A stretch of DNA of 64,000 nucleotides from Patescibacteria group bacterium (GCA_041738615.1 JBGSPL010000001.1:226164-290163), one strand, 5' to 3'. Counted from the stretch's first letter, positions 38,779-63,687 are shown. Numbers and translations: made by a program. Notes: a model not told the origin generated them from the sequence alone.

Positions 38779-38788
38779 TTGATCATAA

Positions 38789-38904
<116 letters not shown>

Positions 38905-39030
38905 AGTAGTGTGCATCACAAGGAGACACACTACTGTCTGGAAACTAAAAGTTTCCAGAATATAATGAATGAAAGGTACGAATTGCCAGTCAACACTTTA
39001 TACTCAGCACGAATGCCGAATATAAAGTTA

Positions 39031-42076
<3,046 letters not shown>

Positions 42077-43239: not shown

Positions 43240-43252
43240 TTTTGTTTCACAA
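43228..43252. repeat. 25-bp repeat copy 1 containing palindrome GTGAAACA-TTTT-TGTTTCAC
   Basis: GCCGTGAAACATTTTTGTTTCACAA, identical to 47695-47719. An extra GTTTCAC half-site follows at 43255-43261. Confidence 0.7.
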
Positions 43253-43352
43253 TTGTTTCACGCTACCAGGGTGTCAGCCACAATCTGTATTTTTTGCTAT
43301 CCATGCGGTATAATCACACTGTTTCTCACATATCTGCGACCTGGAGGTCATC

Positions 43353-43886
43353 ATGTACCAGAGACTTGTCCGTAGTTCGGACGTACCTATCACCGATGCG
43401 CAGAGGAAGTCGCTCGGCAACTGGGCCTTGGTCCGCTACTTCGGCTGGGGATTCGGACTCATGATCGTCCTGATACCCCTCAACTTCGTGGCCGTCCTCA
43501 TCAACCGGCTACTGGGACGAGCAATCCCTCCGAGCGGGGTTTGGTTCTACATCGGAATGATTCCATTCTGCCTGGTTTCGGCTCTCGTCGGCACCTACGC
43601 GCACTACCGCATCCGGCAGCTGCCGTGGTGGCGCGCACCCGAGCCAACTGAGACAGAGAAGGCGAGGGACACGTACCAAGACACGGCCGGTGACGTCTGG
43701 ATCGGGTTTGGTATCGCCTTCTTCGGTACAATCGCCGGTCTCTTCTCCGGCGTCTACTGGTTCTACCTCGCTATTCCTGCTGGAGCCGGCTGGAGCTGGC
43801 TTGTCTACAAGTCGGCCAAGGCGCAGTACCAGGAGTATCTGAGGTTGAAGCAGGAAGAACAACGGGTCCCCACTGCCGCTACGTAG
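43353..43886 (+). CDS. high-GC hypothetical membrane protein (4 TM)
   Basis: 177 aa, about 60% GC in a 45% GC context. SD GGAGGT 5 nt upstream. GC-rich hairpin plus T-run terminator at 43895-43960. Confidence 0.55.
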   Translation: MYQRLVRSSDVPITDAQRKSLGNWALVRYFGWGFGLMIVLIPLNFVAVLINRLLGRAIPPSGVWFYIGMIPFCLVSALVGTYAHYRIRQLPWWRAPEPTETEKARDTYQDTAGDVWIGFGIAFFGTIAGLFSGVYWFYLAIPAGAGWSWLVYKSAKAQYQEYLRLKQEEQRVPTAAT

Positions 43887-43991
43887 CGGTCAACGCGCCC
43901 AAGGCGCACGCAAGAGTACTACCGTACGACGGCGCTGCACTTTGGGCGCCTTTCGTTTTTGCCCTTACATAATCATGAGACTCCATGACCT

Positions 43992-44039
43992 TGAAATATT
44001 TACTCCCCCACATACGTATTACAATTACAGGCGTATAAT
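43992..44039 (+). promoter_or_regulatory. promoter region of ECF sigma gene: ECF-type TGAAAT-N17-CGTA plus TATAAT 6 nt before the ATG
   Basis: TGAAAT at 43992-43997 and ACGTAT about 16-17 nt downstream resemble the SigW/SigE-type TGAAAC-N16-CGTA. TATAAT at 44034-44039 leaves only 6 nt before ATG 44046 (leaderless). Confidence 0.4.
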
Positions 44040-44045
44040 CTATTT

Positions 44046-44615
44046 ATGAGCAAAGAAAAAGAAACTGATGAACAACTAGCGGTAATGCTCCAAAAAGGCA
44101 ATAAAGATGCCTTTGGGCAACTTATCGACCGCTACGAACCCGCTCTCCTGCGCTATACTCACCGCCTACTTTCTGACCAAGATGCCGCTGAGGACGTCAC
44201 ACAAGAAACTTTCCTCAAGTCCTATAGAGACATCCAGGGTTTTGATCCAAATCGAAAGTTTAGCTCGTGGCTTTATCGTATAGCCCATAACCAAGCTATA
44301 GACGCTATCCGCAAAAGGAAAGGTACGGTAATACTAGAAGAGGCAGAGAGTATCGCCTCAGAAGAAGATATACACGACGATATCCAGAACAGACTAGACA
44401 AGAAGCATCTGAGAACCAAGCTAGATACCGCTATCGCCAAGATACCCACGAAGTACCGTGAAACGGTGATACTACGCTTCTATGAAGAGAAAGAATATGA
44501 CGAGATTGCCGAGATACTCCACCTTCCTATTGGTACCGTCGGAACATATATATCTAGAGCAAAAGCAGAACTGAGAAAACAATTAACTGAAATTAATATA
44601 GAGGATTACCTATGA
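44046..44615 (+). CDS. ECF (sigma-70 family, group 4) sigma factor
   Basis: 189 aa with region 2 (DVTQETFLKSYRDIQGF...SWLYRIAHNQAIDAIRKRK) and region 4 (REKEYDEIAEILHLPIGTVGTYISRAKAELR). Confidence 0.85.
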   Translation: MSKEKETDEQLAVMLQKGNKDAFGQLIDRYEPALLRYTHRLLSDQDAAEDVTQETFLKSYRDIQGFDPNRKFSSWLYRIAHNQAIDAIRKRKGTVILEEAESIASEEDIHDDIQNRLDKKHLRTKLDTAIAKIPTKYRETVILRFYEEKEYDEIAEILHLPIGTVGTYISRAKAELRKQLTEINIEDYL

Positions 44616-45103
44616 GCGAGCTAAAGAACAAACTTTTGAAAAAAATCGAGAGCGAAGACCTGAAGATGAGGTCACGTGGCTTTTTTGTCTTTACTCGGGC
44701 CCTTATCGAGATTGCGCTAGTAGCGATATTGGTAGCTACCATATATCTAGTAAACCTAGCGATCTATTTGCCCAAACGAGGACTAGGACCCATTCGACCG
44801 CAAGCATTCCGGATAAATATGTTGCTCGATATAGTACCTTGGCACTATCTGATCTTCGGAGCTATCGGACTAGGGGTTTCTTTTTGGCTGCTATACAGGT
44901 TCACCGGAACCTACAAGAAACACTATCTAGTAATGGTGGCTGTAGTATCAATACTAGTACTATTATCTGGGGCTCTACTCGCCTTCAGCAATCTGAATGA
45001 ACGATTCGAAAACAGACCACATATGCGCGGCCTCTACATGATGGACGATCCTAGGCTTGGACCTGGCAGAGGTATGGGACCAGGATTCAACAGATTGAAA
45101 TAA
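44612..45103 (+). CDS. putative membrane anti-sigma factor (translationally coupled to the ECF sigma)
   Basis: 163 aa. Start overlaps the sigma stop (ATGA). Two TM segments. C-terminus RGMGPGFNRLK. Confidence 0.55.
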   Translation: MSELKNKLLKKIESEDLKMRSRGFFVFTRALIEIALVAILVATIYLVNLAIYLPKRGLGPIRPQAFRINMLLDIVPWHYLIFGAIGLGVSFWLLYRFTGTYKKHYLVMVAVVSILVLLSGALLAFSNLNERFENRPHMRGLYMMDDPRLGPGRGMGPGFNRLK

Positions 45104-45169
45104 ATTCCATCGGCGCACCGTATTATATATAGAGGTGCACACTCTAAAGAAACTAATCAAGGAGAGACA

Positions 45170-45676
45170 ATGAATAAGAAACAAATAATCGCCGCAACAG
45201 CCCTAATAGCTGGAATCGGTCTAGCAGGAGCCTACGGCATCCAAACAGCAAAAGCTGCTACCGACACAAATAGCTTCCCACCGATGATTCAAAAAATGGT
45301 AGAGAAATTCAATCTAAACACAGACGAGGTTTCGAAATTTGTAAACGAAGATCGAGAAGCCAGACAAACAGAACGAGAAGCTGACTTTGAGAAGAAACTT
45401 GCTGATGCAGTGACTGCCGGCAAGATCACAGAAGCTCAAAAGACAGCTGTCCTCGCCAAGCACGACGAACTGCAAACGAAGAGAGAAGCTCTAAGAGACC
45501 AGAACAAGGAAGATAGAGAAGCTCATCGTACAGAGATGCAGGCCATACACACTGAGATGCAAGATTTCCTAAAAGCCCAAGGTATCGACGAATCAGTCTT
45601 GCCTACACCAAAAGGTCCACAAGGTGGTGGAATGGGAATGGGCGGCGGCATGCACCGCGGTTTCAACCGACAATAG
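45170..45676 (+). CDS. secreted LTXXQ-motif (CpxP/Spy/ZraP-like) protein with Gly/Met-rich C-terminal tail
   Basis: Signal peptide MNKKQIIAATALIAGIGLAGAYGIQTAKA. KITEAQKTAV is LTxxQ-like. Tail GGGMGMGGGMHRGFNRQ. Confidence 0.6.
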   Translation: MNKKQIIAATALIAGIGLAGAYGIQTAKAATDTNSFPPMIQKMVEKFNLNTDEVSKFVNEDREARQTEREADFEKKLADAVTAGKITEAQKTAVLAKHDELQTKREALRDQNKEDREAHRTEMQAIHTEMQDFLKAQGIDESVLPTPKGPQGGGMGMGGGMHRGFNRQ

Positions 45677-45692
45677 GAACTGAATATACTAA

Positions 45693-45725
45693 AGAGCTCT
45701 ACGGAGCTCTTTTTTTGTGGCGAGA
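45693..45725 (+). terminator. rho-independent terminator of the sigma module
   Basis: AAAGAGCUCUACGGAGCUCUUUUUUUG. Confidence 0.75.
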
Positions 45726-45858
45726 AATTATATCAAATCTACCCGATAGGCAGAAGTTTTTTGTTAACGAGCATTATATACAAAATGTGAAAAGCCCCGC
45801 AGGGCGTTTCAGTAACGAAACGTCCTTTGGGGCGCATTAGTTGGATACGGAACAGCCT

Positions 45859-46524
45859 TTACTGTGGCTGTTCTTCTATGACTGGTAACCTGGCAGGAAG
45901 ATCCGGATTTGCCTTAAAGAACAAGGAAAGCCAGATCGCGAATGAGACAATGACGAGGATGATAAAGATCATCCCCCAAATCATGTACAGTTTGCTGTTA
46001 CGCTCTTCCCTTCTCTCTCTCGCTGCCTCCAACCTCGCGCTTTTGGCCCGGGCTGCCTTTTCGGCTGGAGTGGAGTAGTGCCAATGGGGTTGATGTGAGA
46101 TTCCTCCGCTGTAGCTACCAGCGGGAGCCGAGCCCCCACTGGTGCCACCAGAAGGAACGTAGTCTCCTCCGTAATTCCCGTAGGAACCAGACGGAGAGTA
46201 GGTAGATCCTCCACCAGCAGCCGGACTAGACGAACCGTCGGGCGGTCTATCCAGACGAGCAGCCACAGAACCAGCCACCGAAACACCGTACTCGGTACCG
46301 CTTCGGCTATCCCATGGCATTTGAGCCACATACTCCGAGTGGCCACCGGGTGAGGTTACCGAAGTGTTGCCAGCGAAGTTGGTACTGACGCTAGCAACCT
46401 CTTTGCCAACACCCCCAAGTAATCCTGGTTCGTGCACGGAGACGCTGCCATCTATCTTCTCAATGCCAACGCTCGTGACGTTGCCGAAGAAATCCTTCGT
46501 TACGGTCTTATCTCCCCATGCCAT
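45859..46524 (-). CDS. high-GC hypothetical protein, Gly/Ser/Tyr-rich with C-terminal TM anchor
   Basis: Start at ATG 46524 (MAWGDK..., SD GGAGGTG 6 nt upstream). About 60% GC. Low-complexity GGSTYSPSGSYGNYGGDY. One TM near the C-terminus. Confidence 0.5.
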   Translation of the reverse strand: MAWGDKTVTKDFFGNVTSVGIEKIDGSVSVHEPGLLGGVGKEVASVSTNFAGNTSVTSPGGHSEYVAQMPWDSRSGTEYGVSVAGSVAARLDRPPDGSSSPAAGGGSTYSPSGSYGNYGGDYVPSGGTSGGSAPAGSYSGGISHQPHWHYSTPAEKAARAKSARLEAARERREERNSKLYMIWGMIFIILVIVSFAIWLSLFFKANPDLPARLPVIEEQPQ

Positions 46525-46735
46525 CGTGAGCACCTCCAACCTTCTTGTCCAAGGAACATATAATGATTGGCGTATTTATACCACGAAAAGGAGTAAATTG
46601 CAAGTCTACAAAAGGCCATTGATCTTACCACGGACAAGATTATTCTGTTCAAAAAGGAAAACTTGTGCTAGAATGCTCGCACGTAATGATGGTATGGCCA
46701 CAAGTGGCTGATTTGACAACTAGATTGGAGCTGGC

Positions 46736-47599
46736 ATGGACACTGAACTGCTAGACGTCACTGATTTCGAGCGCATCGGTGGTGGAAAGACCAAGGACAT
46801 CTTCCTCGACCCTTCGTTCCGAGGTTACGTTCTCATCCGAAGCCGCGACGACATCAGCGCCGGAGACGGCGCCCGCAAGGACACCATGACCGGCAAGGCC
46901 GAACTCGCCACGACGACGACCGTGAACAACTTCCGCTATCTCGACTCTTGCGGCATCTTCAACCACTACGTCGCTGGGGTCGTGGACCCGGTAACCTTCC
47001 GGGCTCTCGAGTGCACACCGATTCCGATCGAGTGCGTCGCGCGCCGGTATTCGGCAGGCGGCTCGTATCCCAAGCGCGTTCCCGGCATTCCCGTCGGCCA
47101 CCGCTACGACCACCCGGTCGTCGAGATGTTCTGGAAGCAGGACGTCGGCGAGTACACCGATCCGTTCATGGTCTTCGATGCCAAGAAGGGGTTCTTCGAG
47201 CTTCACCCGGCCCAGGAGCCGACTACGGCAATGAACGTCCTGTCGACAATCGCAGCGAACGAGATCCCTGGCTTCGAGAAGTTCGCTGACCCACTCCAAC
47301 TGATCGCGACCATGGAGATGATGACCGACAGAGCCTTCTGCGCCCTCGAGAGGGCCTACAGGATGGTCGCTCTCACGGTCGTCGACATGAAGATCGAGTT
47401 CGGACTCGACAACGCGGGCGACGTCACGATCATCGACGTCATCGACGCCGACTCGTGGCGCGCCTGGGTCGACGGCGACCCGGAGAAGGCAGTCGACAAG
47501 CAGTTCTTCCGGGATCACCCGGACGAGCCGGCCGACACCTCGCTCCCCGCCTATCGCTACGTCGCCGAGAAATCCGCACAGATTCTCGAGCTGCCCTAG
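46736..47599 (+). CDS. purC: phosphoribosylaminoimidazole-succinocarboxamide (SAICAR) synthase, long form (high-GC gene)
   Basis: 287 aa with GGGKTKDIF, MTGKAELATTTTVNNFRYL, IPIECVARRYSAGGS and VVDMKIEFGLDNAGDVTIIDVIDADSWRAW. About 62% GC. Native-looking AT-rich promoter (TGCTAGAAT) upstream. Confidence 0.85.
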   Translation: MDTELLDVTDFERIGGGKTKDIFLDPSFRGYVLIRSRDDISAGDGARKDTMTGKAELATTTTVNNFRYLDSCGIFNHYVAGVVDPVTFRALECTPIPIECVARRYSAGGSYPKRVPGIPVGHRYDHPVVEMFWKQDVGEYTDPFMVFDAKKGFFELHPAQEPTTAMNVLSTIAANEIPGFEKFADPLQLIATMEMMTDRAFCALERAYRMVALTVVDMKIEFGLDNAGDVTIIDVIDADSWRAWVDGDPEKAVDKQFFRDHPDEPADTSLPAYRYVAEKSAQILELP

Positions 47600-47622
47600 C
47601 GGCATCAAGCAGCCATCACTAC

Positions 47623-47656
47623 GAAGGGGCGGTTTCCAATTGGAAACCGCCCCTTC
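47623..47656. terminator. perfect 14-bp stem terminator between convergent genes
   Basis: AAGGGGCGGTTTCC-AATT-GGAAACCGCCCCTT, followed by CTGCTTTT. Confidence 0.8.
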
Positions 47657-47694
47657 TGCTTTTATAGAGATAATAGCCTCGAATACATATAATG

Positions 47695-47719
47695 GCCGTG
47701 AAACATTTTTGTTTCACAA
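47695..47719. repeat. 25-bp repeat copy 2 (same as 43228-43252)
   Basis: GCCGTGAAACATTTTTGTTTCACAA. Lies between two terminators in a convergent intergenic region. Confidence 0.7.
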
Positions 47720-47783
47720 AAGCAAAGAGCCCACGAATTCAGATGAATCGTGGGCCCCCGCTTTGACTTGAATCTGGGTGCTG

Positions 47784-48186
47784 CTACGCGCTGAGCAGCA
47801 TCCTTGCGTCCGGGCTGTTCTGGGTGAGTATCTCGAGGACAGAGGTCGCGAGCATCGGGTCGTCGGTGACTACAGTGACGGTACCGTCGCGGCACAGAAA
47901 GAGATCGGCTACCTTGCCGTAGATCCTGAGATTCGCGTACTCGGTTGGGCCGACGTGAACCATACGCGCCTCGTACTCGGAGTCGATGACGTAGCCCTCG
48001 GCCTCCCAGTGATAGTCGATCCCGGCGACGTTGAATGCGTCCGCGATGGCATCCATGTAGCGTCGCCCGCGAAGGTTAACGTAAGCCCTAGCCCTGCCGC
48101 TAAGGAGTCCCATCAAACGACGGGGACCCCTCCCAACACTGAGCTCGAAGCCAGGTGGCAGACCATCCGTGATCGGGAAATGCATG
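47784..48186 (-). CDS. high-GC hypothetical protein
   Basis: 134 aa from ATG 48186 (MHFPITDGLPPGFE..., SD GAGGAGAG). GC3 about 75% on this strand. Hairpin plus U-rich terminator at 47724-47760. The track ORF extends upstream into AT-rich DNA. Confidence 0.5.
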
Positions 48187-48353
48187 GTAGCTCTCCTCTC
48201 ATGTGGCGAACTGGATTCCAGAATGTCAAAGCGAACCTTGAGCAAGGTGGTGACCACCTTGCTTGGGAACGTAATATCATAATACTTTTCAGCGCAAATG
48301 TCAATCCACACCCAGGTGTGCTCTGGTGATTTGCCAACCGAAGTTGGGGAGAA

Positions 48354-49934
48354 CTACTTCTTCTTGGAGCCCTTCCTAGGACGCTTGGCTTTGTGTTCCG
48401 CAACCTGCTTCTTGAGCTTGTTCTCTGTTCGTCTATCCGATACCCACTTGAGGCCCCACAGGGCAGCAACACCGGCGAGTGATGATAAGCCGATAGCTAG
48501 AGCACCGTTTAGCGACGAGTCCGCGGTTTTCTCTGCACCTGTGAACTTTGGATCTACTAAGTTGATTGAAGCGATTTTCGACTTGTCAGACAAAAGCTTT
48601 TGCGCGAGCTCGGTAATCTGCTCTGGATAATCTCGACCAATTTCTGGCAACTGCAAGAGTGCAGATAGCTCTGCGTCCACCCCTTCACCAAGGTCAATCA
48701 GCCCAAACTTCTCTGGCTCTGCCGCGATAGCAGCTACGAGCTCTTTAGCAATCCATTGGGCGCCCCCTCGGTAAGAAAACTCGGAATATTCCGAGGATCC
48801 CCAATCTAAAATCCGCGACAGTGAAGCCGACTTTTTCTCGGTAAACATGAGCTCCCCGAGCATACCCATAGTTTCGTCACGGACACCCTCGGCAGATTGG
48901 GCCTGCATAAGCTCCAGGGCGCTCGTGGCAGCCGCTACCTGGTCCAACCCTAGCGTCTCCTCGTTCTGATAAAACAAGTGCCCCATTTCGTGTGCCACAA
49001 CTCTGGTAGGCACCTCTACATCAAAATCTTGAATATAACTCTCGGAAACAAATGAACCGAGCTGCATAGCTAGCACTTGTCTTTCCTCTACTGTCTTTCC
49101 TGCCTGCATTATCTTTTCCGCTCGACTCTGAATATCGAGTAAGCCCTCTGACCCTATTCTCTCCTTGGTCTCCTGTATTTGTTGCTTCTTCTCGGCGGCC
49201 TCGGTGTCAGCACCTTCTTTGTAGATAAGGACCGACTTGTATCTAGTTTGCCCTTCTAGTGGGGCCGTTGTCTTCACGCTGCTGATGCCCTCGCCATCGA
49301 GTACTAGTGGGCCGATATTCACAAGCGGAACCATCCTATCGCCGACTGCTGTCTCCACTACCGTATGCTTTGCCGACTCTACACTAAAGAAATTTGTGAT
49401 AACCCCAAAATAATCCTTGCCGGTTTCATCTGCGGCGATGGCCAAGACAGACTTGGCAAAGATGCCATACTGAGCCATTGCCTCTGGGAATCTTCGCTGC
49501 ATCACTTGTTTGTACTGTTCGGGACTAAAAGGAGTTTCTTCGTGCAAGACTTGTGCGACTGCCTGGTAAGCATCCTCGTGTGCTGCCGTTTGTTCGGCTG
49601 TAGGGGTCACAAATCCTGCGACTGTCTCCTGGCTATCGGCCATACCATCTGCAGCCACTAGCCTCTGGTATTCTTCTATCGCTGCTATCGCACTTTTTGC
49701 TTCTGCTGTTATCGGCTGCTGTTCGACCGCAAAGTCGATTGGCTTCATGGTTTCTTTGATATTCTCTACAATAACTTCATTTCCGCGAAACTCTGTCGAT
49801 GCCTCGGCACTTGTCGGTTTCTCTAGAGCCTCGGCAGCTACTGCCGCCGCTGTGCCGGCAACCCCCTGTAAAAACTGCCTCCTGGTTATTCCTCGTTCAT
49901 CTTCTGCATGATTCTCGGCCATGGTGCGCTCCAC
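48354..49934 (-). CDS. Tat-signal zinc metallopeptidase-like protein (HEMGH) with C-terminal TM anchor
   Basis: N-terminal RRQFLQGVAGTAAAVAA twin-arginine motif. VVAHEMGHLFYQ HExxH. C-terminal hydrophobic helix plus KKQVAEHKAKRPRKGSKKK. Confidence 0.6.
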   Translation of the reverse strand: MERTMAENHAEDERGITRRQFLQGVAGTAAAVAAEALEKPTSAEASTEFRGNEVIVENIKETMKPIDFAVEQQPITAEAKSAIAAIEEYQRLVAADGMADSQETVAGFVTPTAEQTAAHEDAYQAVAQVLHEETPFSPEQYKQVMQRRFPEAMAQYGIFAKSVLAIAADETGKDYFGVITNFFSVESAKHTVVETAVGDRMVPLVNIGPLVLDGEGISSVKTTAPLEGQTRYKSVLIYKEGADTEAAEKKQQIQETKERIGSEGLLDIQSRAEKIMQAGKTVEERQVLAMQLGSFVSESYIQDFDVEVPTRVVAHEMGHLFYQNEETLGLDQVAAATSALELMQAQSAEGVRDETMGMLGELMFTEKKSASLSRILDWGSSEYSEFSYRGGAQWIAKELVAAIAAEPEKFGLIDLGEGVDAELSALLQLPEIGRDYPEQITELAQKLLSDKSKIASINLVDPKFTGAEKTADSSLNGALAIGLSSLAGVAALWGLKWVSDRRTENKLKKQVAEHKAKRPRKGSKKK

Positions 49935-50055
49935 TTATAGCAATATTTTACCCTTCTATATGTAATATTCAAAGCTGTTTGGACAAACTTCTATAAAGCA
50001 AAGTGCCCGCCTCCCACGGGCTACTCTGAAGTAGTGGTGGAAGTACGGGCACGTA

Positions 50056-50667
50056 CTAGGCGGGATCCTTCTGGAAGGTGAGCTGTTTCTCTTGCCCATT
50101 CCAGATTCTCACCCAGTTCTCGCGGTGGAGCCAGATGACCATAGCCCCCATCGCGAATGCAATCACTGCTGGCCAGGTCTCCAGGGTGTAGAGGTAGACC
50201 AATATCCAGAAAAGGCCAGCGATGGCGGTAGAGCCGATGGCAACGACCCTCGTGAGCGCGACTGCGAGCACGAAGATCACGAGCAGTACTAGAGCCACCG
50301 GCCACATCTGGTAGAAGAGCGCTCCAGCTCCGGGTGCGATCCCCTTGCCGCCCTTCCAGTGGAGGTAGAACGGGAAGGTGTGACCAGCGATGACGGACAT
50401 CATGATCAAGAGCATGATGGAAGCTGATGGGTGTTTCAGGACCGTGGCAGCGAGCCACATAGCCAGGATACCCTTGCCGGCGTCCAGTAGAAGGACGGCT
50501 AGCGCCGGCTTCCACCCCAGTACCCGATACACGTTGGTAGCGCCGAGATTACCGGAGCCAGACTCTCTGATATCGGTGCGGTAGAACACCTTACCGATTA
50601 CGAGAGCCCAAGAGATGGTACCGATGGCATAGGCCAGTGCGGCACATCCCACGTAGCTGAAAACCAC
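50056..50667 (-). CDS. plsY: acyl-phosphate:glycerol-3-phosphate acyltransferase PlsY (high-GC gene)
   Basis: GSGNLGATNVYRVLG and LLLDAGKG motifs. Start placed at GTG 50667 (SD AAGGAGGTG 6 nt upstream), because the longer track ORF would overlap fabK. Confidence 0.8.
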   Translation of the reverse strand: MVFSYVGCAALAYAIGTISWALVIGKVFYRTDIRESGSGNLGATNVYRVLGWKPALAVLLLDAGKGILAMWLAATVLKHPSASIMLLIMMSVIAGHTFPFYLHWKGGKGIAPGAGALFYQMWPVALVLLVIFVLAVALTRVVAIGSTAIAGLFWILVYLYTLETWPAVIAFAMGAMVIWLHRENWVRIWNGQEKQLTFQKDPA

Positions 50668-50707
50668 TTGCCCACCTCCTTGGGTGGTAGGAACGATGGT
50701 GCGGACC

Positions 50708-51676
50708 CTACTCGCCTTCGGCAAGAGCTTGGTTCGCGCCTTCGTAGATGCGGTCGACGATGGCAGCTGCAGGCTCGATAGCGTGGATGTGACAGGCCAC
50801 CTGGCCACACATCACACTACCCCACACCGTGTCACCCTGCTTCATCGCTTTCTCGAGGGCGCCGTCACCGAGGGCAGCCTTGCCATCCTCATCTCCGGCA
50901 GCCTCCAGCTCTGCGAAACGTTCCGAGAGTGCGTTCACGAGGACGCGCACGGGTCGATGGCCGATAGCCTTGGGCGTGTATGTGACTGTAGTACAGTCGC
51001 CCTGTGCCGCAACGATCATCTGCTTGACCTCATCTGCGATCTCGGTCTCCTCGGCTACGAGGAAGGCCGTCCCGACCTGAACGCCTTCGGCGCCCGCGAG
51101 GATTGCCTTCGCTGCACTCTGTCCGTCGTAGATACCGCCCGCGGCGATAACCGGGATACGGCCAGCGACAAGGGCGATGATGTCCGACAGGATGTCGAAC
51201 AACCCGTGATTGCCGATGTGACCGCCGGATTCGAGCCCCTCGACGATGAGAGCATCGACCCCAAGCTTCAGCCAGTAGTTGGCCCACTTTACCTCAGCGA
51301 CCAACGGGATCACCTTGACCCCAGCGCTCTGAAGCAAGGATACCTTGTCCTGACGAAAGACGCCGGCGCCAATCGTGACCGCAGTGACTCCACCTTCCTC
51401 GATGAGGACATCAATGAGAGCCTGCGCTTTGACTGCGTCGACTGCCATGATGTTCACCCCAAAGGGCTTGTCGGTAAGACCCTTGATCCTGCGGATTTCA
51501 TCCCGCAGTTCCTCGGGGGTCATTCGACCCGTGGCGATGATGCCAAAGCCGCCAGCATTGCTGACGGCTGCCGCAAGGGTGGCCGTAGAAACACAAGCCA
51601 TCCCTCCCTGTAGCACTGCCTTCGCTATTCCGAGCAACTCGCAGATGCGAGCGCCCCATTCGCGTATTCGTGCCAT
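50708..51676 (-). CDS. fabK: enoyl-ACP reductase FabK-type (NPD/nitronate monooxygenase family flavoprotein, high-GC gene)
   Basis: 322 aa. LLGIAKAVLQGGMACVSTATLAAAVSNAGGFGII, GVNIM, IAAGGIYDGQSAAKAILAGAEGVQVGTAFL. SD GAGGAGAGGAG. Confidence 0.75.
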   Translation of the reverse strand: MARIREWGARICELLGIAKAVLQGGMACVSTATLAAAVSNAGGFGIIATGRMTPEELRDEIRRIKGLTDKPFGVNIMAVDAVKAQALIDVLIEEGGVTAVTIGAGVFRQDKVSLLQSAGVKVIPLVAEVKWANYWLKLGVDALIVEGLESGGHIGNHGLFDILSDIIALVAGRIPVIAAGGIYDGQSAAKAILAGAEGVQVGTAFLVAEETEIADEVKQMIVAAQGDCTTVTYTPKAIGHRPVRVLVNALSERFAELEAAGDEDGKAALGDGALEKAMKQGDTVWGSVMCGQVACHIHAIEPAAAIVDRIYEGANQALAEGE

Positions 51677-51877
51677 GCCGAACTCCTCTCCTCGAGAGCC
51701 AATGGTCTCTAAACTGTCAATGAACCCCCAAGTAATCTATCGTTGGGAATTGGCTGGATTATACCCTAAAACCAAGCTTTATTCAACGAAAATATCGCAG
51801 AAACGCAAACACTCCGCCCCGCAGGCAGTACAACGGAGTGTTATACGCCCGCAAAGCGGAGTGGTAATAGAGGGCAG

Positions 51878-52645
51878 CTATTGAGCAGCCCAGACACGGT
51901 CACGGAGTGTCCGTGCAGCAGTGGGGATGTAGTTCATAGTGATGACATCGGCAGGAAGCTCCAATCCCTCAAAGCAACCTACGCTGCACGCCCGGAGCGC
52001 CATGACACCGCTGAAACCGTCGGCGCTGAGCGCTTTCAGGACATCCGCCCCCTTGATCCCGTCGTCGAGGCAACACTCGGTGAGGACGCCGGCCAGATGG
52101 CAGTCGTGGTGCGTGATGCGCGCTTCCTGAAGACTCGATACGGCGTAGACCGACAGGTCTCCCAGGTATCCGCGATACGCCTCCAGAGCTTCTGCTCGGG
52201 CAACAACCATGACGGCGGGCTTCACCAGCAACTCAAAGACCCCCGGGTGAGCGGTCTTCCAATCACGCCAACGGGTGTACTGGCCCTCCATGCTATCGAG
52301 GAGCTCGAGCAGGGAGAGAGCACTGTGTTCCGCCGGATTCGGGAAGTAGGCAGCGGGGTTCTCCCAGGTGTACTTCTTGTAACACCAGTCGCCCTCCCCC
52401 CTCTTCCAGAAGGTTACCGTGTTGGCGCAGGGCCCACCGATGAAAGTGCCCTGAGGAGTAACCACCTCCATCTCCTTGGCAGTGCTGCCCCAGGCGGGTC
52501 CCTGGCAGATGTACTCCACGAAGGAGCGAATCTGCCTTGCCTCTTGGGCAGTCACTTCAACGGAGCCAGGAAGCAGCGTAGCGATGTAGTCCGGTCTTCC
52601 AGGATCCTTCACAGGGATCCCCAGCTTTACGAGGTGCTCGTGCAT
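51878..52645 (-). CDS. high-GC Cys-rich hypothetical protein
   Basis: 255 aa. GC3 highest on this strand in sampled codons. Hairpin AACACTCCG...CGGAGTGTT downstream. A competing 281-aa plus-strand ORF is judged less likely. Confidence 0.4.
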   Translation of the reverse strand: MHEHLVKLGIPVKDPGRPDYIATLLPGSVEVTAQEARQIRSFVEYICQGPAWGSTAKEMEVVTPQGTFIGGPCANTVTFWKRGEGDWCYKKYTWENPAAYFPNPAEHSALSLLELLDSMEGQYTRWRDWKTAHPGVFELLVKPAVMVVARAEALEAYRGYLGDLSVYAVSSLQEARITHHDCHLAGVLTECCLDDGIKGADVLKALSADGFSGVMALRACSVGCFEGLELPADVITMNYIPTAARTLRDRVWAAQ

Positions 52646-52839
52646 ATTTCTAGCCTTTCTCTCGGCGTAAACTGCAAGTCGACGATATTATACGACGAAA
52701 TACCGCTTTCTACAAGCATAAGATGACACATCGGCGGGATAAGCCTAGTAATGGCAATAACGCAAAGGCTTCACTTTTTTCCTTAATTGGGCTATAATCC
52801 AAGCGGTTCTTTTGTATACATGCCGACACTGGGGGCGCT

Positions 52840-53238
52840 ATGAGCGAGAAACCTTTGACCCGTAGCGACATCGTCAGGGAAGGAAGGTGGCTGCTGATCC
52901 TCATCTGGATCTGGCAAGATGAGGCAGACATCGACAGGTACTTCGAGCTGGCTCGAATTCTCTTCGGGATGATCTTTGTGGAGCACAACACGGGCAAGCT
53001 TGCCGACCCACTGCTCTGTCGCCCGAGTTGGGCAAACCTGCCTCTTGCCAAGGCCGTCTTCGTACTCGCCAAGGCACAAGGATTCCAACGGGGCGAAGGT
53101 AGCCAGCTGGCTACCAAACTCTGCCACGCCAAACATACCCACAACCACTACCCCGTCATCAATCTCATGGTGATACAGGGAGTGCACCCCCGGGTGGCGC
53201 CTCGCCACGTTCCCCATCTCATCGCCTTGGTCGCCTGA
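52840..53238 (+). CDS. high-GC hypothetical protein
   Basis: 132 aa. GC3 about 70% versus GC1 about 55% on plus. Perfect TATAAT at 52786-52791 in the AT-rich upstream region. Competing minus ORFs rejected. Confidence 0.4.
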   Translation: MSEKPLTRSDIVREGRWLLILIWIWQDEADIDRYFELARILFGMIFVEHNTGKLADPLLCRPSWANLPLAKAVFVLAKAQGFQRGEGSQLATKLCHAKHTHNHYPVINLMVIQGVHPRVAPRHVPHLIALVA

Positions 53239-53336
53239 GAACCGCAGCGCCACTGGCGCACAGTCTCCCGCAAAGGAAGCGCCGTGCACCACTGGCGCTT
53301 CATCATTTGTCCAAAATTATGATAAAATATAGCCAT

Positions 53337-53816: not shown

Positions 53817-53884
53817 GAAATTTCCCGACAAAATAACATCCTAAAATTCTATAGAATATTAGGATGTTATTTTACGATAAGTAC

Positions 53885-55861: not shown

Positions 55862-57037
55862 CTAGTTTCTTTGCAGTTTTGCGCTATCCAGCTTTGTTAG
55901 TATTTCAGAGCTGAAAGTATAGACTGTACCCTTATTCGCATTATATCTTTCCTCGGCCAGAGAGATAAGGTTCTCGACCAGCTCCACGCCTGAAACACCC
56001 ACTGAGCGCCAATTGTGGTCATAGAGCCCACCGGGAAGAGTATTGACCTCATTTACGTAAACCTCACCCTTCTTGCCTTCTATTAGAAAATCAACCCGGG
56101 CAATACCCGTACACCCGAGGGTACGATAGGTCATCTCTCCATACTTCAGGACCTTATCGGCAAGTTTCTTGTCTATAACTGCCGGTAGCTCACTATATTT
56201 TCCGTTCAGACTACCGCCACCACCAAGCTTCTTACCACCAGAAAGGTACTTGTCCGAAAAATCAAAAAACTCAGTTTTATTTAGTGGCCGCTCTATGTTG
56301 GCAAACTTCACAACGTCGTTGCCCATCATAGGGAGCGTAACCTCAATCAGGTTTTCCACCCCTTCCTCTACAAGGACTTTCTCGTCGTAATGCAGCGCCA
56401 CCTCTATAGCATTTTCGAGTTCCCCATATGTTTTTACCTTCGAGATAGCGATACTGGAGCCCAAATGAACGGGCTTCACAAATAGCGGCAATTTGAGCTT
56501 CTTAGCACTACCAAGTAATTCCTTGTTCTTTGCTGCCCAATCCGCGCGAGAAAACCACACAAAAGGCACCACCGGCACGCCCTCGGTTTGCAAAGCTTGC
56601 TTCGTGAGAGCCTTGTCCATCGCCACAGCAGAGGCAATGAGGTCACAGCCCACAAATGGTACATTCGCCATTCTCATCATCCCCATGAGACTCCCGTCTT
56701 CGCCGTAGGTGCCATGAAGTGCTGGAAAGACCACATCAATTTTCTGCTGCCTGGCCTTGATTCCGCCAGACCAGACGAGTGTAAAACCGTCATCAAAGGA
56801 GAAATGCAACTTCTTGAGTTTACCGATCTTCTCGTCAATATCCTCCACTTGAAAGTACGAAAAATCATTCATTGCAGGCTCTGAGTACCAGGAACCGTCC
56901 TTGGCGATATAGACCGGCACCACAGTATACCTCCCGGTTGCCTGTAACGAGCTGATTATCGGATAGTGTCCCGTAATGATAGAAACGTCGTGCTCTGCAC
57001 TTCGCCCACCGAATATTACTGCAATTGTCTTCTTCAT
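55862..57037 (-). CDS. ddl: D-alanine--D-alanine ligase
   Basis: 391 aa ATP-grasp. IAVIFGGRSAEHDVSI, FPALHGTYGEDGSLMGMM. Confidence 0.9.
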   Translation of the reverse strand: MKKTIAVIFGGRSAEHDVSIITGHYPIISSLQATGRYTVVPVYIAKDGSWYSEPAMNDFSYFQVEDIDEKIGKLKKLHFSFDDGFTLVWSGGIKARQQKIDVVFPALHGTYGEDGSLMGMMRMANVPFVGCDLIASAVAMDKALTKQALQTEGVPVVPFVWFSRADWAAKNKELLGSAKKLKLPLFVKPVHLGSSIAISKVKTYGELENAIEVALHYDEKVLVEEGVENLIEVTLPMMGNDVVKFANIERPLNKTEFFDFSDKYLSGGKKLGGGGSLNGKYSELPAVIDKKLADKVLKYGEMTYRTLGCTGIARVDFLIEGKKGEVYVNEVNTLPGGLYDHNWRSVGVSGVELVENLISLAEERYNANKGTVYTFSSEILTKLDSAKLQRN

Positions 57038-57061
57038 ATCGCCTCCTTCGGCATAATTATA

Positions 57062-58492: not shown

Positions 58493-59238
58493 AAGAAATT
58501 CCTAATCTCGGCTACCACATCGGCGGGATTTTCTTGGTGCACAAAGTGTGTAGCCCCTGGTATGACAATAAATCGCGAGCCTACTATCAATCCTGACAAT
58601 TTCTCGCCATCTTCTTTGGGAGTCGAGGTATCGTTCTCCCCCCAGATTAACAAGGTTGGAACCTTAATCTTTGCGGCGTACTCTCGCAAGTCCTCCTTGA
58701 TTGTCAGGAGAAAATTTTCTCTAAGTGCACCCGTATCTAGGTAGTCACTACCGATAGCCTTATAAAAACGCTTTTTGATAGTATTCCTATAGAATAAAAA
58801 TGGCGGCATAAAAGTAAGCAGTCCAAAGATCTTCGCGGCTGTTGCAACCGAAAGATTTCGCAACGATTTGCCCTTTGCTATTCCTGCAGAACCGATAAGT
58901 ATCAGCTTTGCCGTCTTGAACTTGCCCGTCGAAATACCCTTGATTGCCACCCTGCCGCCAAATGAGTGCCCAAGTATCGCGTATGGATCAAGGCCTAGTT
59001 TATCGATAAAATGATTTACAAAACTTACGTATTCCGAAATCCCCCAAGTCTCTTGTGGTTTCTCAGTTCCACTAAACCCTGGCATATCTAGGCGCACTAC
59101 ACGGTACTTTCCTGCGAGTTCAGCGGCTATTGAATCGAAGGTATGAAGATTGTCCATCCAACCATGAAGCAACAGGACGACTTTCCCCTTGCCTTCGTCT
59201 AAGTATTCTGTAGCGAGTTTATCGACAATTATCTTCAT
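58486..59238 (-). CDS. alpha/beta hydrolase
   Basis: HGWMDN oxyanion region. GHSFGG nucleophile elbow. Confidence 0.8.
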   Translation of the reverse strand: MKIIVDKLATEYLDEGKGKVVLLLHGWMDNLHTFDSIAAELAGKYRVVRLDMPGFSGTEKPQETWGISEYVSFVNHFIDKLGLDPYAILGHSFGGRVAIKGISTGKFKTAKLILIGSAGIAKGKSLRNLSVATAAKIFGLLTFMPPFLFYRNTIKKRFYKAIGSDYLDTGALRENFLLTIKEDLREYAAKIKVPTLLIWGENDTSTPKEDGEKLSGLIVGSRFIVIPGATHFVHQENPADVVAEIRNFLC

Positions 59239-59593: not shown

Positions 59594-59604
59594 GGAGGTC
59601 GGCT

Positions 59605-59769: not shown

Positions 59770-59781
59770 GGTGATACTTCC

Positions 59782-63611: not shown

Positions 63612-63687
63612 TGGTGGACCCGACAGGACTCGAACCTGCCACCTCCTCAGTGCAAATGAGGCGCTCTACCAGATGAGCTACGGGCCC
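63612..63687 (-). tRNA. tRNA-Ala (anticodon UGC), CCA encoded
   Basis: rc GGGCCCGTAGCTCATCTGGTAGAGCGCCTCATTTGCACTGAGGAGGTGGCAGGTTCGAGTCCTGTCGGGTCCACCA. Cloverleaf with G3:U70 and a TGC anticodon loop. Confidence 0.9.

What the first reader, a model, noticed from the sequence alone, without database searches (positions are those of the whole stretch)
43300..53300. Mosaic of individually embedded high-GC genes in a low-GC genome
At least nine ORFs are 57-62% GC with GC3 about 70-75%: 43353-43886, 45859-46524, 46736-47599, 47784-48186, 50056-50667, 50708-51676, 51878-52645, 52840-53238, and possibly 48354-49934. Neighbouring native genes and almost all intergenic spacers are 40-47% GC. Several of these ORFs carry strong SDs and native-looking AT-rich promoters. 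An actinobacterial contig in a mis-assembled bin would also have GC-rich spacers. The most economical explanation is repeated gene-by-gene acquisition from a high-GC donor with faster amelioration of non-coding DNA. If the organism is an epibiont of Actinobacteria, the donor could be its host.
Basis: partly seen in the sequence, partly recalled or inferred. Interest (0 to 1): 0.8.

Follow-up and report, generated by a model that had tools for sequence, protein, structure and literature searches.

The report
GC-rich gene mosaic in a Saccharibacterium
A hypervariable stretch between the tRNA-Ala and 23S rRNA genes of an uncultured Saccharibacterium holds seven separately transcribed genes far richer in G+C than the rest of the genome, which is a real sign of imported genes, but none can be traced to an actinobacterial host.

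Summary
The compositional mosaic is real, but it involves seven ORFs, not nine. These seven have GC 0.58-0.62 and GC3 0.69-0.84. The 43 native genes have GC 0.466±0.022 and GC3 0.486±0.044. ORF 45859-46524 is only Gly/Ser-rich (GC3 0.55), and 48354-49934 is native-like.

The organism is an uncultured Candidatus Saccharibacteria. The genes lie in a hypervariable block between tRNA-Ala and 23S rRNA. A close relative (23S 98.8% identical) lacks all of them and carries different GC-rich ORFans there.

Misassembly is very unlikely. A related species, assembled independently from four metagenomes, has the same GC-rich PurC-like gene in a 0.43 GC background.

The foreign-origin reading is supported. 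The actinobacterial-host donor is not:
- No homologue exceeds 57% identity outside the clade.
- The hypothetical ORFs tested have no detectable homologues.
- The nearest relatives of FabK, PlsY and the PurC-like gene are themselves GC-rich genes inside low-GC contigs. One PlsY relative lies on a contig collinear with this genome.

The AT-rich flanks are not decayed donor DNA. The PurC-like promoter and leader are better conserved than its coding sequence.

Verdict: an ordinary kind of feature (a horizontal-transfer island in Patescibacteria) with an unresolved donor puzzle. Interest is moderate.

The parts
43353..43886 (+). hyp177: GC-rich predicted membrane protein. It has its own -10 box (TATAAT, 43309-43314), a GGAGG Shine-Dalgarno motif and a terminator at 43931-43950.
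   Evidence: GC .59, GC3 .75. Sequence read. Terminator. Only a sub-threshold DUF6249 Pfam hit, and no PHROG, plasmid or phage hit.
44046..45676 (+). Native-GC trio lying between GC-rich genes: ECF sigma factor (44046-44615), overlapping putative anti-sigma membrane protein (44612-45103) and hyp168 (45170-45676).
   Evidence: GC .43-.47. Sigma70_r2 and r4 domains.
45859..46524 (-). hyp221: Gly/Ser-rich protein with a C-terminal transmembrane segment. Ambiguous; not clearly part of the GC-rich set.
   Evidence: GC1 = GC2 = GC3 = .55, GC3 z 1.4. Translation.
46664..47672 (+). PurC-like (SAICAR-synthetase family) transcription unit: extended -10 (TGcTAGAAT, 46666-46674), 61-nt conserved leader, ORF 46736-47599 and terminator 47623-47656.
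   Evidence: PF01259 at 135 bits. GC .62, GC3 .84. The whole unit is 83% identical to L001 over exactly these limits, and similarity stops at the -10 box and the terminator. dS about 0.68, against saturated dS for the flanking Ddl.
47784..48185 (-). hyp133: GC-rich Arg-rich ORF with no homologue found in the libraries searched. Promoter-like site 48304-48276. A terminator hairpin lies just downstream of its stop codon, at about 47730-47760.
   Evidence: GC .61, GC3 .75. Promoter 11/12 match. Unrelated to the GC-rich 138-aa gene at the same position in L001. No viral, plasmid or phage hit. Terminator hairpin read by eye from the sequence; the terminator scan lists no site there.
48354..49934 (-). 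TAT526: protein with a twin-arginine signal, an HEMGH motif and a C-terminal anchor. Native composition; not part of the GC-rich set.
   Evidence: GC .51, GC3 .53. TAT_signal hit at about threshold. Translation.
50056..50667 (-). PlsY (acyl-phosphate:glycerol-3-phosphate acyltransferase), GC-rich. Terminator at 50021-50005. Joined to FabK by a GC-rich 40-nt spacer.
   Evidence: TIGR00023 at 148.3 bits, above the 137.2 cut-off. GC .58, GC3 .74. Spacer GC .62. Nearest homologues 50%, 46% and 45%.
50708..51676 (-). FabK-like FMN enoyl reductase (NMO family), GC-rich. Its own promoter-like site is at 51786-51758.
   Evidence: PF03060 at 194.7 bits. TIGR03151 at 288.5 bits, below the 453.1 equivalog cut-off. 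GC .61, GC3 .69. Nearest homologue 57%.
51878..52645 (-). hyp255: GC-rich ORFan upstream of FabK.
   Evidence: GC .61, GC3 .72. Only a self-hit among 5.8 billion protein clusters. No Pfam, NCBIfam or PHROG family. AlphaFold2 single-sequence model was uninformative, pLDDT 35.
52840..53238 (+). hyp132: GC-rich ORF with no homologue found in the libraries searched. Promoter-like site 52770-52798 and terminator 53276-53301.
   Evidence: GC .58, GC3 .72. Promoter and terminator. No family or plasmid/phage hit.
43228..43252 (+). Left copy of a 25-nt perfect direct repeat, GCCGTGAAACATTTTTGTTTCACAA. It overlaps the start codon of the GC-poor gene 42508-43239.
   Evidence: The same motif sits beside GC-rich genes in L005 and L007.
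47695..47719 (+). Right copy of the 25-nt direct repeat, between the PurC-like terminator and the hyp133 terminator.
   Evidence: Chance expectation is 0.01 matches per window.
38788..42074 (-). 5S (38788-38903) and 23S rRNA (39031-42074). This is the conserved left border of the variable block.
   Evidence: Rfam. 95.6% identical to L001 and 98.8% to L005, with similarity ending at 42513.
55862..59238 (-). Ddl, Mur ligase and alpha/beta hydrolase. This conserved native block forms the right border of the variable block.
   Evidence: Pfam. Syntenic in L001, L005 and L007.
63612..63687 (-). tRNA-Ala(UGC), the upstream part of the split rRNA operon.
   Evidence: Same arrangement in L005 and L007.

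Best explanation
The window comes from an uncultured Candidatus Saccharibacteria genome. Its rRNA operon is split: about 21.5 kb of protein genes lie between tRNA-Ala and 23S. The segment next to 23S (about 42.5-55.7 kb) is a hypervariable accessory region.

Seven genes there are xenologues that spent their earlier history in one or more genomes of about 60% GC or higher. They are hyp177, the PurC-like gene, hyp133, PlsY, FabK, hyp255 and hyp132. They were inserted one or two genes at a time. Each now works as a self-contained transcription unit with an AT-rich sigma-70-type promoter, a Shine-Dalgarno motif, the ORF and a GC-rich hairpin terminator. FabK and PlsY probably arrived together.

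The likely entry route is natural transformation followed by illegitimate or short-homology recombination. This step is inferred. At least the PurC-like unit has since moved between, or been acquired in parallel by, different Saccharibacteria species as a complete promoter-to-terminator module. Its GC3 is probably decaying towards the genome value.

The immediate donors are not identified and are not demonstrably Actinobacteria. They may be other Patescibacteria or an unsampled GC-rich reservoir. In function, the imports add lipid-salvage steps (PlsY, FabK-like reductase), a PAICS-type SAICAR-synthetase homologue, and several small proteins of unknown role.
For: **Shown**
- GC, GC3 and amino-acid composition are outliers: GC3 z 4.7-8.0, GARP .28-.34 against .24.
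- GC drops at the gene borders.
- The lineage is Saccharibacteria. The window carries housekeeping genes of native GC: IF-2, FtsZ, FtsA, SecDF, PriA, RecJ, HisRS and NrdD.
- The island genes are absent from L005, whose 23S is 98.8% and Ddl 93% identical. L005 has a 4.5-kb interval in place of 13 kb, with a different GC-rich 188-aa gene.
- L001 and L007 carry yet other, unrelated GC-rich ORFs in the same interval.
- Four independent assemblies (L001-L004) show the PurC-like gene at GC .59 inside a .41-.44 background.
- The window's GC-rich proteins occur in both the NCBI and Logan collections.
- For the PurC-like unit, dS is about 0.68 while Ddl, Mur and U32 are saturated. Similarity is confined to the span from the -10 box to the terminator.
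- 54 of 69 synonymous third-position differences are G/C against A/T, with more A/T in the lower-GC genome (38 against 16). This fits decay from a GC3 of about .92.
- More distant FabK and PurC-like relatives lie in uniformly GC-rich contigs: L050 (57-62%, a full fab operon) and L015/L016 (67%).

**From the literature**
- Saccharibacteria are naturally competent (PMC10633639, PMC10187176).
- Genomic islands and single-gene transfers, mostly between Patescibacteria, make up as much as 13% of Patescibacteria genomes (PMC12455944).
Against: - No donor is found. Outside the clade the best identities are 57% (FabK), 50% (PlsY) and 38-39% (PurC-like). hyp255 has no homologue in the protein database, and the other hypothetical ORFs match nothing in the libraries searched.
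- The nearest relatives of FabK, PlsY and the PurC-like gene are themselves GC-rich genes in low-GC contigs (L014, L017, L052). With simple recent import from sampled hosts, the hosts should be the best hits.
- The 42.5-55.7 kb block contains no integrase, transposase or phage gene.
- The direction of GC change cannot be polarised with only two close copies.
- The promoter-like count is not above chance.
Confidence: 0.62

Rival explanations
1. Recent, direct, gene-by-gene transfer from the epibiont's actinobacterial host, with the donor's non-coding DNA ameliorating faster.
For: - The organism belongs to a lineage whose cultivated members live on Actinobacteria (PMC10633639).
- Host-epibiont transfers with more than 99% nucleotide identity are reported for a Saccharimonadia/Ca. 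Phosphoribacter pair (bioRxiv 10.64898/2026.09.16.751625).
- The inferred ancestral GC3 of the PurC-like gene (about .92) would fit a donor of about 70% GC.
- The 380-aa PurC-like relatives lie on 67% GC contigs.
Against: - No actinobacterial protein is closer than about 46% for FabK. The named best hits are Desulfotomaculales and other Bacillota, and identities are flat at 40-49% across phyla.
- PlsY's nearest relative is on a contig collinear with this Saccharibacterium.
- The PurC-like protein matches mycobacterial PurC only at E 1e-4, against 2e-36 for animal PAICS.
- The hypothetical ORFs tested match nothing in 5.8 billion proteins, 50,697 phage records or 72,556 plasmids.
- The AT-rich PurC-like leader is more conserved than the coding sequence.
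- TM7x shows no strong sign of genes transferred from Actinomyces (PMC7427843).
Confidence: 0.12
2. The genes belong to a long-lived, compositionally distinct accessory gene pool resident in Saccharibacteria or other CPR genomes. Their GC-richness is either maintained (by selection on codons or mRNA, by GC-biased gene conversion in often-recombined accessory genes, or by carriage on an unsampled GC-rich mobile element) or repeatedly refreshed. It is not a transient trace of recent import.
For: - For all three genes with detectable homologues, the nearest relatives at 38-57% amino-acid identity are again GC-rich genes in low-GC contigs: L014 FabK (.64, GC3 .82, among .42-.43 genes), L017 PlsY (.57, GC3 .75, beside a .39 gene) and L052 PurC-like (.55, GC3 .67, among .37-.39 genes).
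- The PurC-like gene exceeds its background by about +.15-.17 GC in three genomes of different base composition.
- The PurC-like unit travels with its own promoter and terminator.
- Most single-gene transfers in Patescibacteria are reported to occur within the group (PMC12455944).
Against: - The lineage of L014, L017 and L052 is unproven. L052's heliorhodopsin is only 41% identical to one in a Saccharibacteria MAG.
- The PurC-like tree is star-like, with no clade made up of the embedded copies.
- The asymmetry of S/W differences suggests ongoing decay rather than equilibrium.
- Known GC-biased gene conversion effects in bacteria are far smaller than +0.3 GC3. This point rests on my own knowledge.
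- No vector was found in viral contigs, phages or plasmids.
Confidence: 0.2
3. Part of the region (43228-47719) is a site-specifically integrated element, delimited by 25-nt att-like direct repeats and inserted by a recombinase encoded elsewhere.
For: - Perfect 25-nt direct repeats bracket 4.47 kb. Chance expectation is 0.01.
- Relatives L005 and L007 carry a single copy at the equivalent border, next to their own GC-rich genes.
- A degenerate copy follows the PurC-like terminator in L001.
Against: - There is no integrase in the segment or anywhere in the window.
- The bracketed segment mixes native-GC and GC-rich genes.
- The 20-nt core occurs in 31 unrelated metagenome contigs of GC .32-.58, often with additional GTTTCAC half-sites. 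This points to a common protein-binding palindrome (operator) rather than an att site.
- Most of the GC-rich genes (47784-53238) lie outside the bracket.
Confidence: 0.1
4. Assembly or binning chimera: reads from a GC-rich organism were stitched into a Saccharibacteria contig.
For: The source is a metagenome-assembled genome. Read-level data could not be examined.
Against: - It would need about 14 chimeric joins placed exactly at gene borders, each leaving an intact promoter, Shine-Dalgarno motif, ORF and terminator.
- The same embedded PurC-like arrangement was assembled independently from four samples.
- GC-rich and native proteins of this genome both occur in the NCBI and Logan assemblies.
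- Native genes flank the region on both sides within one 293-kb contig.
Confidence: 0.02

Closest known systems
Genomic islands and individually transferred genes in Patescibacteria/CPR genomes (PMC12455944)
   Same: - An accessory block of atypical composition in an ultra-small epibiont genome.
- The block is variable between close relatives.
- It holds metabolic genes and hypothetical genes.
- Donors are often other Patescibacteria or remain unresolved.
   Different: - The block lies inside a split rRNA operon, between tRNA-Ala and 23S.
- It is a fine mosaic: GC-rich single-gene units alternate with native-GC genes.
- It has no mobility genes.
- No donor is detectable, even in very large protein databases.
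Host-to-epibiont gene transfer in Saccharimonadia (Ca. Lutisaccharimonas / Ca. Phosphoribacter, bioRxiv 10.64898/2026.09.16.751625)
   Same: - A Saccharibacteria-class epibiont.
- GC-rich Actinomycetota are the usual partners.
- Transfer is proposed to result from physical association.
   Different: Those transfers were detected at more than 99% nucleotide identity to host MAGs. Here nothing exceeds 57% amino-acid identity outside the clade, and no actinobacterial affinity is seen.
Amelioration of horizontally acquired genes (Lawrence & Ochman 1997, as cited in PMC12455944)
   Same: - GC3 is the strongest outlier.
- The two PurC-like copies differ mainly by G/C against A/T synonymous changes.
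- The copy in the lower-GC genome has lost more GC.
   Different: Relatives at 38-57% amino-acid identity are still GC-rich inside low-GC contigs. Simple amelioration of one old import does not predict this.
Integron gene-cassette arrays
   Same: - Single-ORF modules of varied origin stacked at one locus.
- Content differs between close relatives.
- Many ORFans.
   Different: - No IntI integrase.
- No attC-like element at each cassette end.
- The units lie on both strands and carry their own promoters and terminators.

Membership tests
Horizontally acquired genomic island | Base composition and codon usage deviate from the rest of the genome | tested here: met
   Seven ORFs have GC3 z 4.7-8.0 relative to 43 native ORFs. 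Their amino-acid usage is also shifted.
Horizontally acquired genomic island | Patchy presence among close relatives at a conserved chromosomal position | tested here: met
   The genes are absent from L005 (23S 98.8% identical). L001, L005 and L007 carry different GC-rich genes in the same 23S-Ddl interval.
Horizontally acquired genomic island | Insertion next to a tRNA or rRNA gene | tested here: met
   The block begins about 440 nt from the 23S gene and lies between tRNA-Ala and 23S.
Horizontally acquired genomic island | Mobility genes (integrase, transposase, phage or conjugation genes) | tested here: not met
   No such Pfam, NCBIfam or PHROG hit in 42.5-55.7 kb or in the other window ORFs scanned.
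Horizontally acquired genomic island | Flanking direct repeats | tested here: inconclusive
   A perfect 25-nt direct repeat brackets only 43228-47719. Its core is a widespread palindrome found in unrelated contigs.
Host (Actinomycetota)-derived genes of an epibiont | Nearest homologues or phylogenetic neighbours are actinobacterial | tested here: not met
   - FabK: 57% to a gene on a low-GC contig, then about 48% to Bacillota; actinobacterial hits are 43-46%.
- PlsY: 50% on a Saccharibacteria-collinear contig.
- PurC-like: PAICS-type.
- hyp255 has no homologue in the protein database, and the other hypothetical ORFs tested have no plasmid or phage match.
Host (Actinomycetota)-derived genes of an epibiont | Identified host whose genome carries near-identical DNA | not testable with these tools
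   The source sample, its reads and co-assembled genomes are not available. No nucleotide-level donor was found in the collections searched.
Integron cassette array | IntI integrase and attI site next to the array, with an attC site at each cassette's 3' end | tested here: not met
   No integrase domain was found. The repeat search found no recurring 3' element other than two copies of one 25-mer.
PlsY (glycerol-3-phosphate acyltransferase) | Score above the curated equivalog cut-off, with a full-length match | tested here: met
   TIGR00023 at 148.3 bits against a 137.2 cut-off. PF02660 matched 1-164 of 164.
FabK (enoyl-ACP reductase II) | Score above the curated equivalog cut-off | tested here: not met
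   TIGR03151 at 288.5 bits, below the 453.1 cut-off. It is a clear NMO-family member (PF03060, 194.7 bits), but the FabK function is not secured. No other fab genes are nearby.
PurC (SAICAR synthetase) | Score above the curated equivalog cut-off, and a purine-pathway context | tested here: not met
   The Pfam family is met (PF01259, 135 bits). TIGR00081 scores only 76.2 against 189.9. The best solved relatives are animal PAICS. No pur genes lie nearby.

The most novel reading that the evidence does not exclude
A set of gene families (a FabK-like reductase, PlsY, a PAICS-type SAICAR-synthetase homologue and many small ORFans) persists in Saccharibacteria-type low-GC genomes as individually embedded GC-rich transcription units across deep divergence (38-57% amino-acid identity between copies). 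This would mean one of two things. Either an unsampled GC-rich reservoir, such as a mobile element or a cryptic host clade, continually reseeds these epibionts. Or a gene-specific force holds these genes far from the genome's compositional equilibrium, contrary to the standard amelioration model.
Probability: 0.2. Interest if true: 0.7.

Novelty: new member of a known kind. Interest (0 to 1): 0.42.

Why it matters
Saccharibacteria are obligate epibionts with tiny genomes, so every imported gene is a clue to what they take from, or do to, their hosts.

This locus shows that the interval inside a split rRNA operon acts as a landing pad for single-gene imports, including lipid-salvage enzymes. 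It also shows that compositional foreignness does not by itself identify the host as donor. The specific prediction of actinobacterial neighbours fails here.

If the pattern of GC-rich copies in several low-GC genomes proves general, it would give a concrete system for testing how long foreign composition can persist. It would also help test whether CPR bacteria share a dedicated accessory gene pool.

Tried and rejected
- **Phage or plasmid origin.** PHROGs gave no hit for the hypothetical ORFs. tblastn of concatenated GC-rich proteins from the window and from relatives found only distant PurC and FabK homologues in phages and plasmids. Six viral-contig scans found nothing closer than a 44% FabK.
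- **Riboswitch or known RNA in the spacers.** The permissive Rfam scan of 43000-53500 was empty.
- **The 25-nt repeat as an island-specific att site.** A metagenome scan with its 20-nt core returned 31 loci from unrelated organisms, with no link to GC-rich genes or to window proteins. I downgraded it to a probable operator-type palindrome.
- **Function of hyp255 from structure.** The single-sequence AlphaFold2 model had pLDDT 35 and was unusable, so I ran no fold search.
- **Families among GC-rich ORFans of the four related genomes.** All-against-all BLASTP found none, apart from a small zinc-ribbon protein shared by the window and L005. Pfam found none.
- **Monophyly of the embedded PurC-like copies.** The neighbour-joining tree is star-like and uninformative.
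- **Amino-acid composition as a proxy for the GC of homologues' source genomes.** Too noisy to use.
- **Lineage of L014, L017 and L052.** tblastx against the Saccharibacteria loci in hand gave only a 41% heliorhodopsin match.
- **Exact look-ups of the window's own proteins.** The look-up of encoding contigs found no record for the window's proteins, so the source contig itself could not be fetched beyond the window.

Full report
**1. The observation**

The window is 47.8% GC. I took 43 ORFs as native. They include housekeeping genes: GlmS, NrdD/G/R, FtsZ, FtsA, HisRS, RecJ, SecD/F, PriA, Fmt, IF-2, S1, Ddl and a Mur ligase. These native ORFs have GC 0.466±0.022 and GC3 0.486±0.044, and none exceeds GC3 0.57.

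Seven ORFs inside 43300-53300 stand far outside this range:

| ORF | Name | GC | GC3 |
|---|---|---|---|
| 43353-43886 (+) | hyp177 | .59 | .75 |
| 46736-47599 (+) | PurC-like | .62 | .84 |
| 47784-48185 (-) | hyp133 | .61 | .75 |
| 50056-50667 (-) | PlsY | .58 | .74 |
| 50708-51676 (-) | FabK-like | .61 | .69 |
| 51878-52645 (-) | hyp255 | .61 | .72 |
| 52840-53238 (+) | hyp132 | .58 | .72 |

ORF 45859-46524 has GC .55 at all three codon positions because it encodes a Gly/Ser/Ala-rich protein. ORF 48354-49934 is native-like (GC3 .53).

GC falls to .42-.49 in the spacers. The exceptions are the 40-nt FabK-PlsY spacer (.62) and the 68 nt after hyp132 (.65).

The encoded proteins are also shifted towards GC-type amino-acid usage. 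GARP is .28-.34 against .24±.03 in native proteins, and the Arg/Lys ratio is higher. The signal is therefore not confined to synonymous sites.

**2. Anatomy of the units**

Each GC-rich gene is a separate transcription unit:
- Shine-Dalgarno motifs precede the start codons.
- Promoter-like hexamers lie upstream of hyp133 (48304-48276, 11/12 match), FabK (51786-51758) and hyp132 (52770-52798).
- Hairpin terminators follow hyp177, the PurC-like gene, PlsY and hyp132.

The number of promoter-like sites is not above shuffled sequence, so only their placement counts as evidence. Terminator-like sites are enriched (17 against 9.0±2.6).

Between the GC-rich genes lie native-composition genes: an ECF sigma factor, a putative anti-sigma protein, hyp168, the TAT-signal protein and a flavodoxin.

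**3. What the genes are**

- **PlsY** passes the NCBIfam equivalog cut-off.
- **The FabK-like protein** is a clear NMO-family FMN enzyme but scores below the FabK equivalog cut-off, and no other fab genes are nearby.
- **The PurC-like protein** belongs to the SAICAR-synthetase Pfam family. It is far below the PurC equivalog cut-off. Its closest solved relatives are the SAICAR-synthetase domains of animal PAICS (E 2e-36), and mycobacterial PurC matches only at 1e-4.
- **hyp177, hyp133, hyp255 and hyp132** have no Pfam, NCBIfam or PHROG family.
- **hyp255** has no homologue among 5.8 billion protein clusters.

**4. Organism and genomic setting**

Relatives of the Ddl protein in the species-representative genome collection are all uncultured Candidatus Saccharibacteria or Saccharimonadia MAGs.

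The 23S and 5S genes (39031-42074 and 38788-38903, minus strand) lie immediately left of the region. tRNA-Ala(UGC) is at 63612-63687, and there is no 16S in the window.

In the relatives L005 and L007, the contigs start with a partial tRNA and tRNA-Ala, followed by the same hydrolase, Mur ligase and Ddl block. L005 reaches 23S after about 9.5 kb. This clade therefore has an rRNA operon split by protein genes, and the GC-rich genes lie in the part next to 23S.

**5. The block is hypervariable**

L005 is GCA_964501135.1. Its 23S is 98.8% identical and its Ddl 93% identical to the window's. It shares no sequence with window 42514-53830 and has none of the island proteins. In its shorter interval it carries a different GC-rich 188-aa gene.

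L007 has a 2.2-kb GC-rich block of four small ORFs. L001 has the PurC-like gene followed by a GC-rich 138-aa gene that is unrelated to hyp133.

The GC-rich ORFs of the four genomes are unrelated to one another, apart from one zinc-ribbon peptide. None matches Pfam, phages or plasmids.

**6. Not an artefact**

- L001-L004 are contigs from four different JGI metagenomes. All show the same arrangement: the PurC-like gene (84% amino-acid identity to the window's) at GC .59, GC3 .75, among genes of GC .39-.47.
- The window's GC-rich and native proteins are both recorded from the NCBI and Logan assemblies and share one 293-kb contig.
- A chimera would need about 14 joins placed exactly at gene borders.
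- Read-level confirmation was not possible with these tools.

**7. Donor tests**

*FabK.* Among 7,989 homologues, the best outside hit is P0032 at 57%. After that, identities are flat at 44-49% across Bacillota (Desulfotomaculales, Clostridia), Actinobacteria MAGs and Nitrospirae. tblastn against plasmids gives the same flat 39-45% picture.

P0032 lies on contig L014, where it is again a GC-rich gene (.64, GC3 .82) between genes of .42-.43 GC. The next hit, P0033, sits in a uniformly 57-62% GC contig with a complete fab operon.

*PlsY.* An exhaustive HMMER search of 1.84 billion cluster representatives gives 50%, 46% and 45%, then 42% or less.
- The 50% hit (P0152) lies on a 93-kb contig whose gene order matches window 1-10 kb: NrdR, NrdD, NrdG, PspC, LiaF-like, then GlmS and a TRAM methyltransferase. 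It is therefore a Saccharibacteria-type genome, but no DNA was available.
- The 46% hit (L017) is a GC .57, GC3 .75 gene beside a .39 GC gene.
- The 45% hit (L018) is an ordinary gene in a 33% GC genome.

*PurC-like.* Outside the clade the best hits are 38-39%. One is a GC .55 gene in a .37-.39 GC contig (L052). The 380-aa family lies on 67% GC contigs (L015, L016).

*Conclusion.* No test gives actinobacterial nearest neighbours. For PlsY and the PurC-like gene, the closest relatives are in Saccharibacteria-type genomes.

**8. The PurC-like module**

Between the window and L001, similarity begins at the extended -10 box and ends just after the terminator. The 61-nt leader is about 93% identical, the coding sequence 83%, and the terminator region about 92%.

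For this gene dN is 0.10 and dS about 0.68. For the flanking Ddl, dN is similar (0.13) but dS is near saturation, and it cannot be calculated for the Mur ligase or the U32 peptidase. After correcting for codon bias, about 36% of synonymous codons are unchanged in the PurC-like gene. The figures are 15% for Ddl, 10% for U32 and 3% for Mur.

The module was therefore shared more recently than the two species diverged, or its silent sites evolve more slowly. The AT-rich flank is a conserved part of the unit rather than decayed donor DNA.

Of 69 synonymous third-position differences, 38 are G/C in the window against A/T in L001. Sixteen are the reverse, 12 are G/C against G/C, and 3 are A/T against A/T. 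This fits decay from an ancestor with GC3 of about .92, faster in the lower-GC genome. The direction cannot be proved with two sequences.

**9. Mechanism**

*Shown:* foreign composition, patchy distribution, placement in a variable interval, a unit structure running from promoter to terminator, and a younger PurC-like module.

*Inferred:* import of short DNA pieces, most plausibly by natural transformation, which has been demonstrated in Saccharibacteria (PMC10633639, PMC10187176). Integration would be by illegitimate or short-homology recombination. Units that are expressed would be retained, and AT-biased mutation would then lower their GC. Transfers between Patescibacteria are reported to be the commonest class (PMC12455944).

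No integrase, transposase or phage gene is present.

A perfect 25-nt direct repeat at 43228-43252 and 47695-47719 brackets 4.47 kb. It recurs as a single copy next to the GC-rich genes of L005 and L007. However, its core is found in 31 unrelated metagenome contigs. I treat it as a probable protein-binding palindrome, not as proven att sites.

**10. What remains odd**

For all three genes with detectable homologues, the nearest relatives are again GC-rich genes inside low-GC contigs. Uniformly GC-rich genomes appear only at greater distance. The hypothetical ORFs match nothing anywhere.

Two readings are possible. An unsampled GC-rich reservoir may feed these epibionts. Alternatively, GC-richness may persist in these genes longer than the amelioration model predicts. 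I give the second, more novel reading about 0.2.

**11. Comparison with what is known, and verdict**

This is a horizontally acquired accessory region of a kind already described for Patescibacteria (PMC12455944). Host-epibiont exchange has been reported for Saccharimonadia (bioRxiv 10.64898/2026.09.16.751625). For TM7x, no strong signal of transfer from Actinomyces was found (PMC7427843).

The locus meets the compositional, phyletic and positional criteria of a genomic island. It lacks mobility genes and an identifiable donor. It is not an integron.

- Novelty: a new member of a known kind.
- Interest: moderate (0.42). This rests on the unresolved donor puzzle and the unusual position inside a split rRNA operon.

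Noticed in passing
window 38788-42074 and 63612-63687; L005 1-13724; L007 1-645: The rRNA operon is split. tRNA-Ala(UGC) and 23S-5S are separated by 21.5 kb of protein genes in the window and by about 9.5 kb in relative L005. No 16S lies in the window. The intervening block contains conserved genes (hydrolase, Mur ligase, Ddl) plus the variable GC-rich genes.
   Followed up: partly
window 43228-43252 and 47695-47719; L005 7479-7512; L007 14524-14547: A perfect 25-nt direct repeat, GCCGTGAAACATTTTTGTTTCACAA, with palindromic GTGAAACA/TGTTTCAC arms. The left copy overlaps the start codon (MFHG...) of gene 42508-43239, and the right copy leaves a 13-codon MFHG remnant. Relatives carry a single copy beside their GC-rich genes. 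The 20-nt core also occurs in 31 unrelated metagenome contigs, often with extra GTTTCAC half-sites, so it is probably a widespread operator-like site.
   Followed up: partly
window 46664-46735; L001 9929-10000: The AT-rich 61-nt leader of the PurC-like gene is about 93% identical between two species whose flanking genes are saturated at silent sites. It contains a small conserved hairpin (GGCCAC..GUGGCU). No Rfam family matches. It could be a regulatory leader.
   Followed up: partly
window 46736-47599: The lone SAICAR-synthetase homologue is closest to the SAICAR-synthetase domain of animal bifunctional PAICS among solved structures. Some database relatives are PurC-PurE fusions, including one from a Patescibacteria MAG. 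No other purine-pathway genes lie nearby.
   Followed up: partly
window 42508-43239: A 243-aa hypothetical gene directly next to the 23S gene is unusually GC-poor (GC .36, z -4.9). It has no family hit and no counterpart in the relatives. The variable block therefore also holds GC-poor foreign-looking DNA.
   Followed up: no
window 48354-49934: A 526-aa protein with a twin-arginine signal, an HEMGH zinc-protease motif and a C-terminal transmembrane anchor with a Lys-rich tail. Its composition is native. It may be a surface metalloprotease of the epibiont.
   Followed up: no
window 59342-59970, 60145-60585, 61775-62281, 34102-35427: Further GC-rich ORFs lie outside the reported interval. They are two small Cys-rich or zinc-ribbon ORFs (one is 80% identical to an ORF at the same position in L005), a 146-aa ORFan, an M23 peptidase (GC3 .73) and a mildly GC-rich MFS transporter that is also GC-rich in L005.
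   Followed up: partly
L014 657-1598; L017 997-1650; L052 402-1220: In three unrelated short contigs of low GC (.37-.43 background), the FabK, PlsY and PurC-like homologues closest to the window's genes are themselves GC-rich (GC .55-.64, GC3 .67-.82). The lineage of these contigs is undetermined.
   Followed up: partly
Logan SRR24010766 contig carrying P0152 (no DNA available): A 93-kb contig collinear with window 1-10 kb has five extra genes between the LiaF-like gene and GlmS: a 210-aa gene, PlsY, Cmk, a 161-aa gene and a 123-aa gene. The window has only a 68-nt spacer at that point. The window genome may have lost PlsY at this site and now carries the GC-rich copy elsewhere.
   Followed up: no
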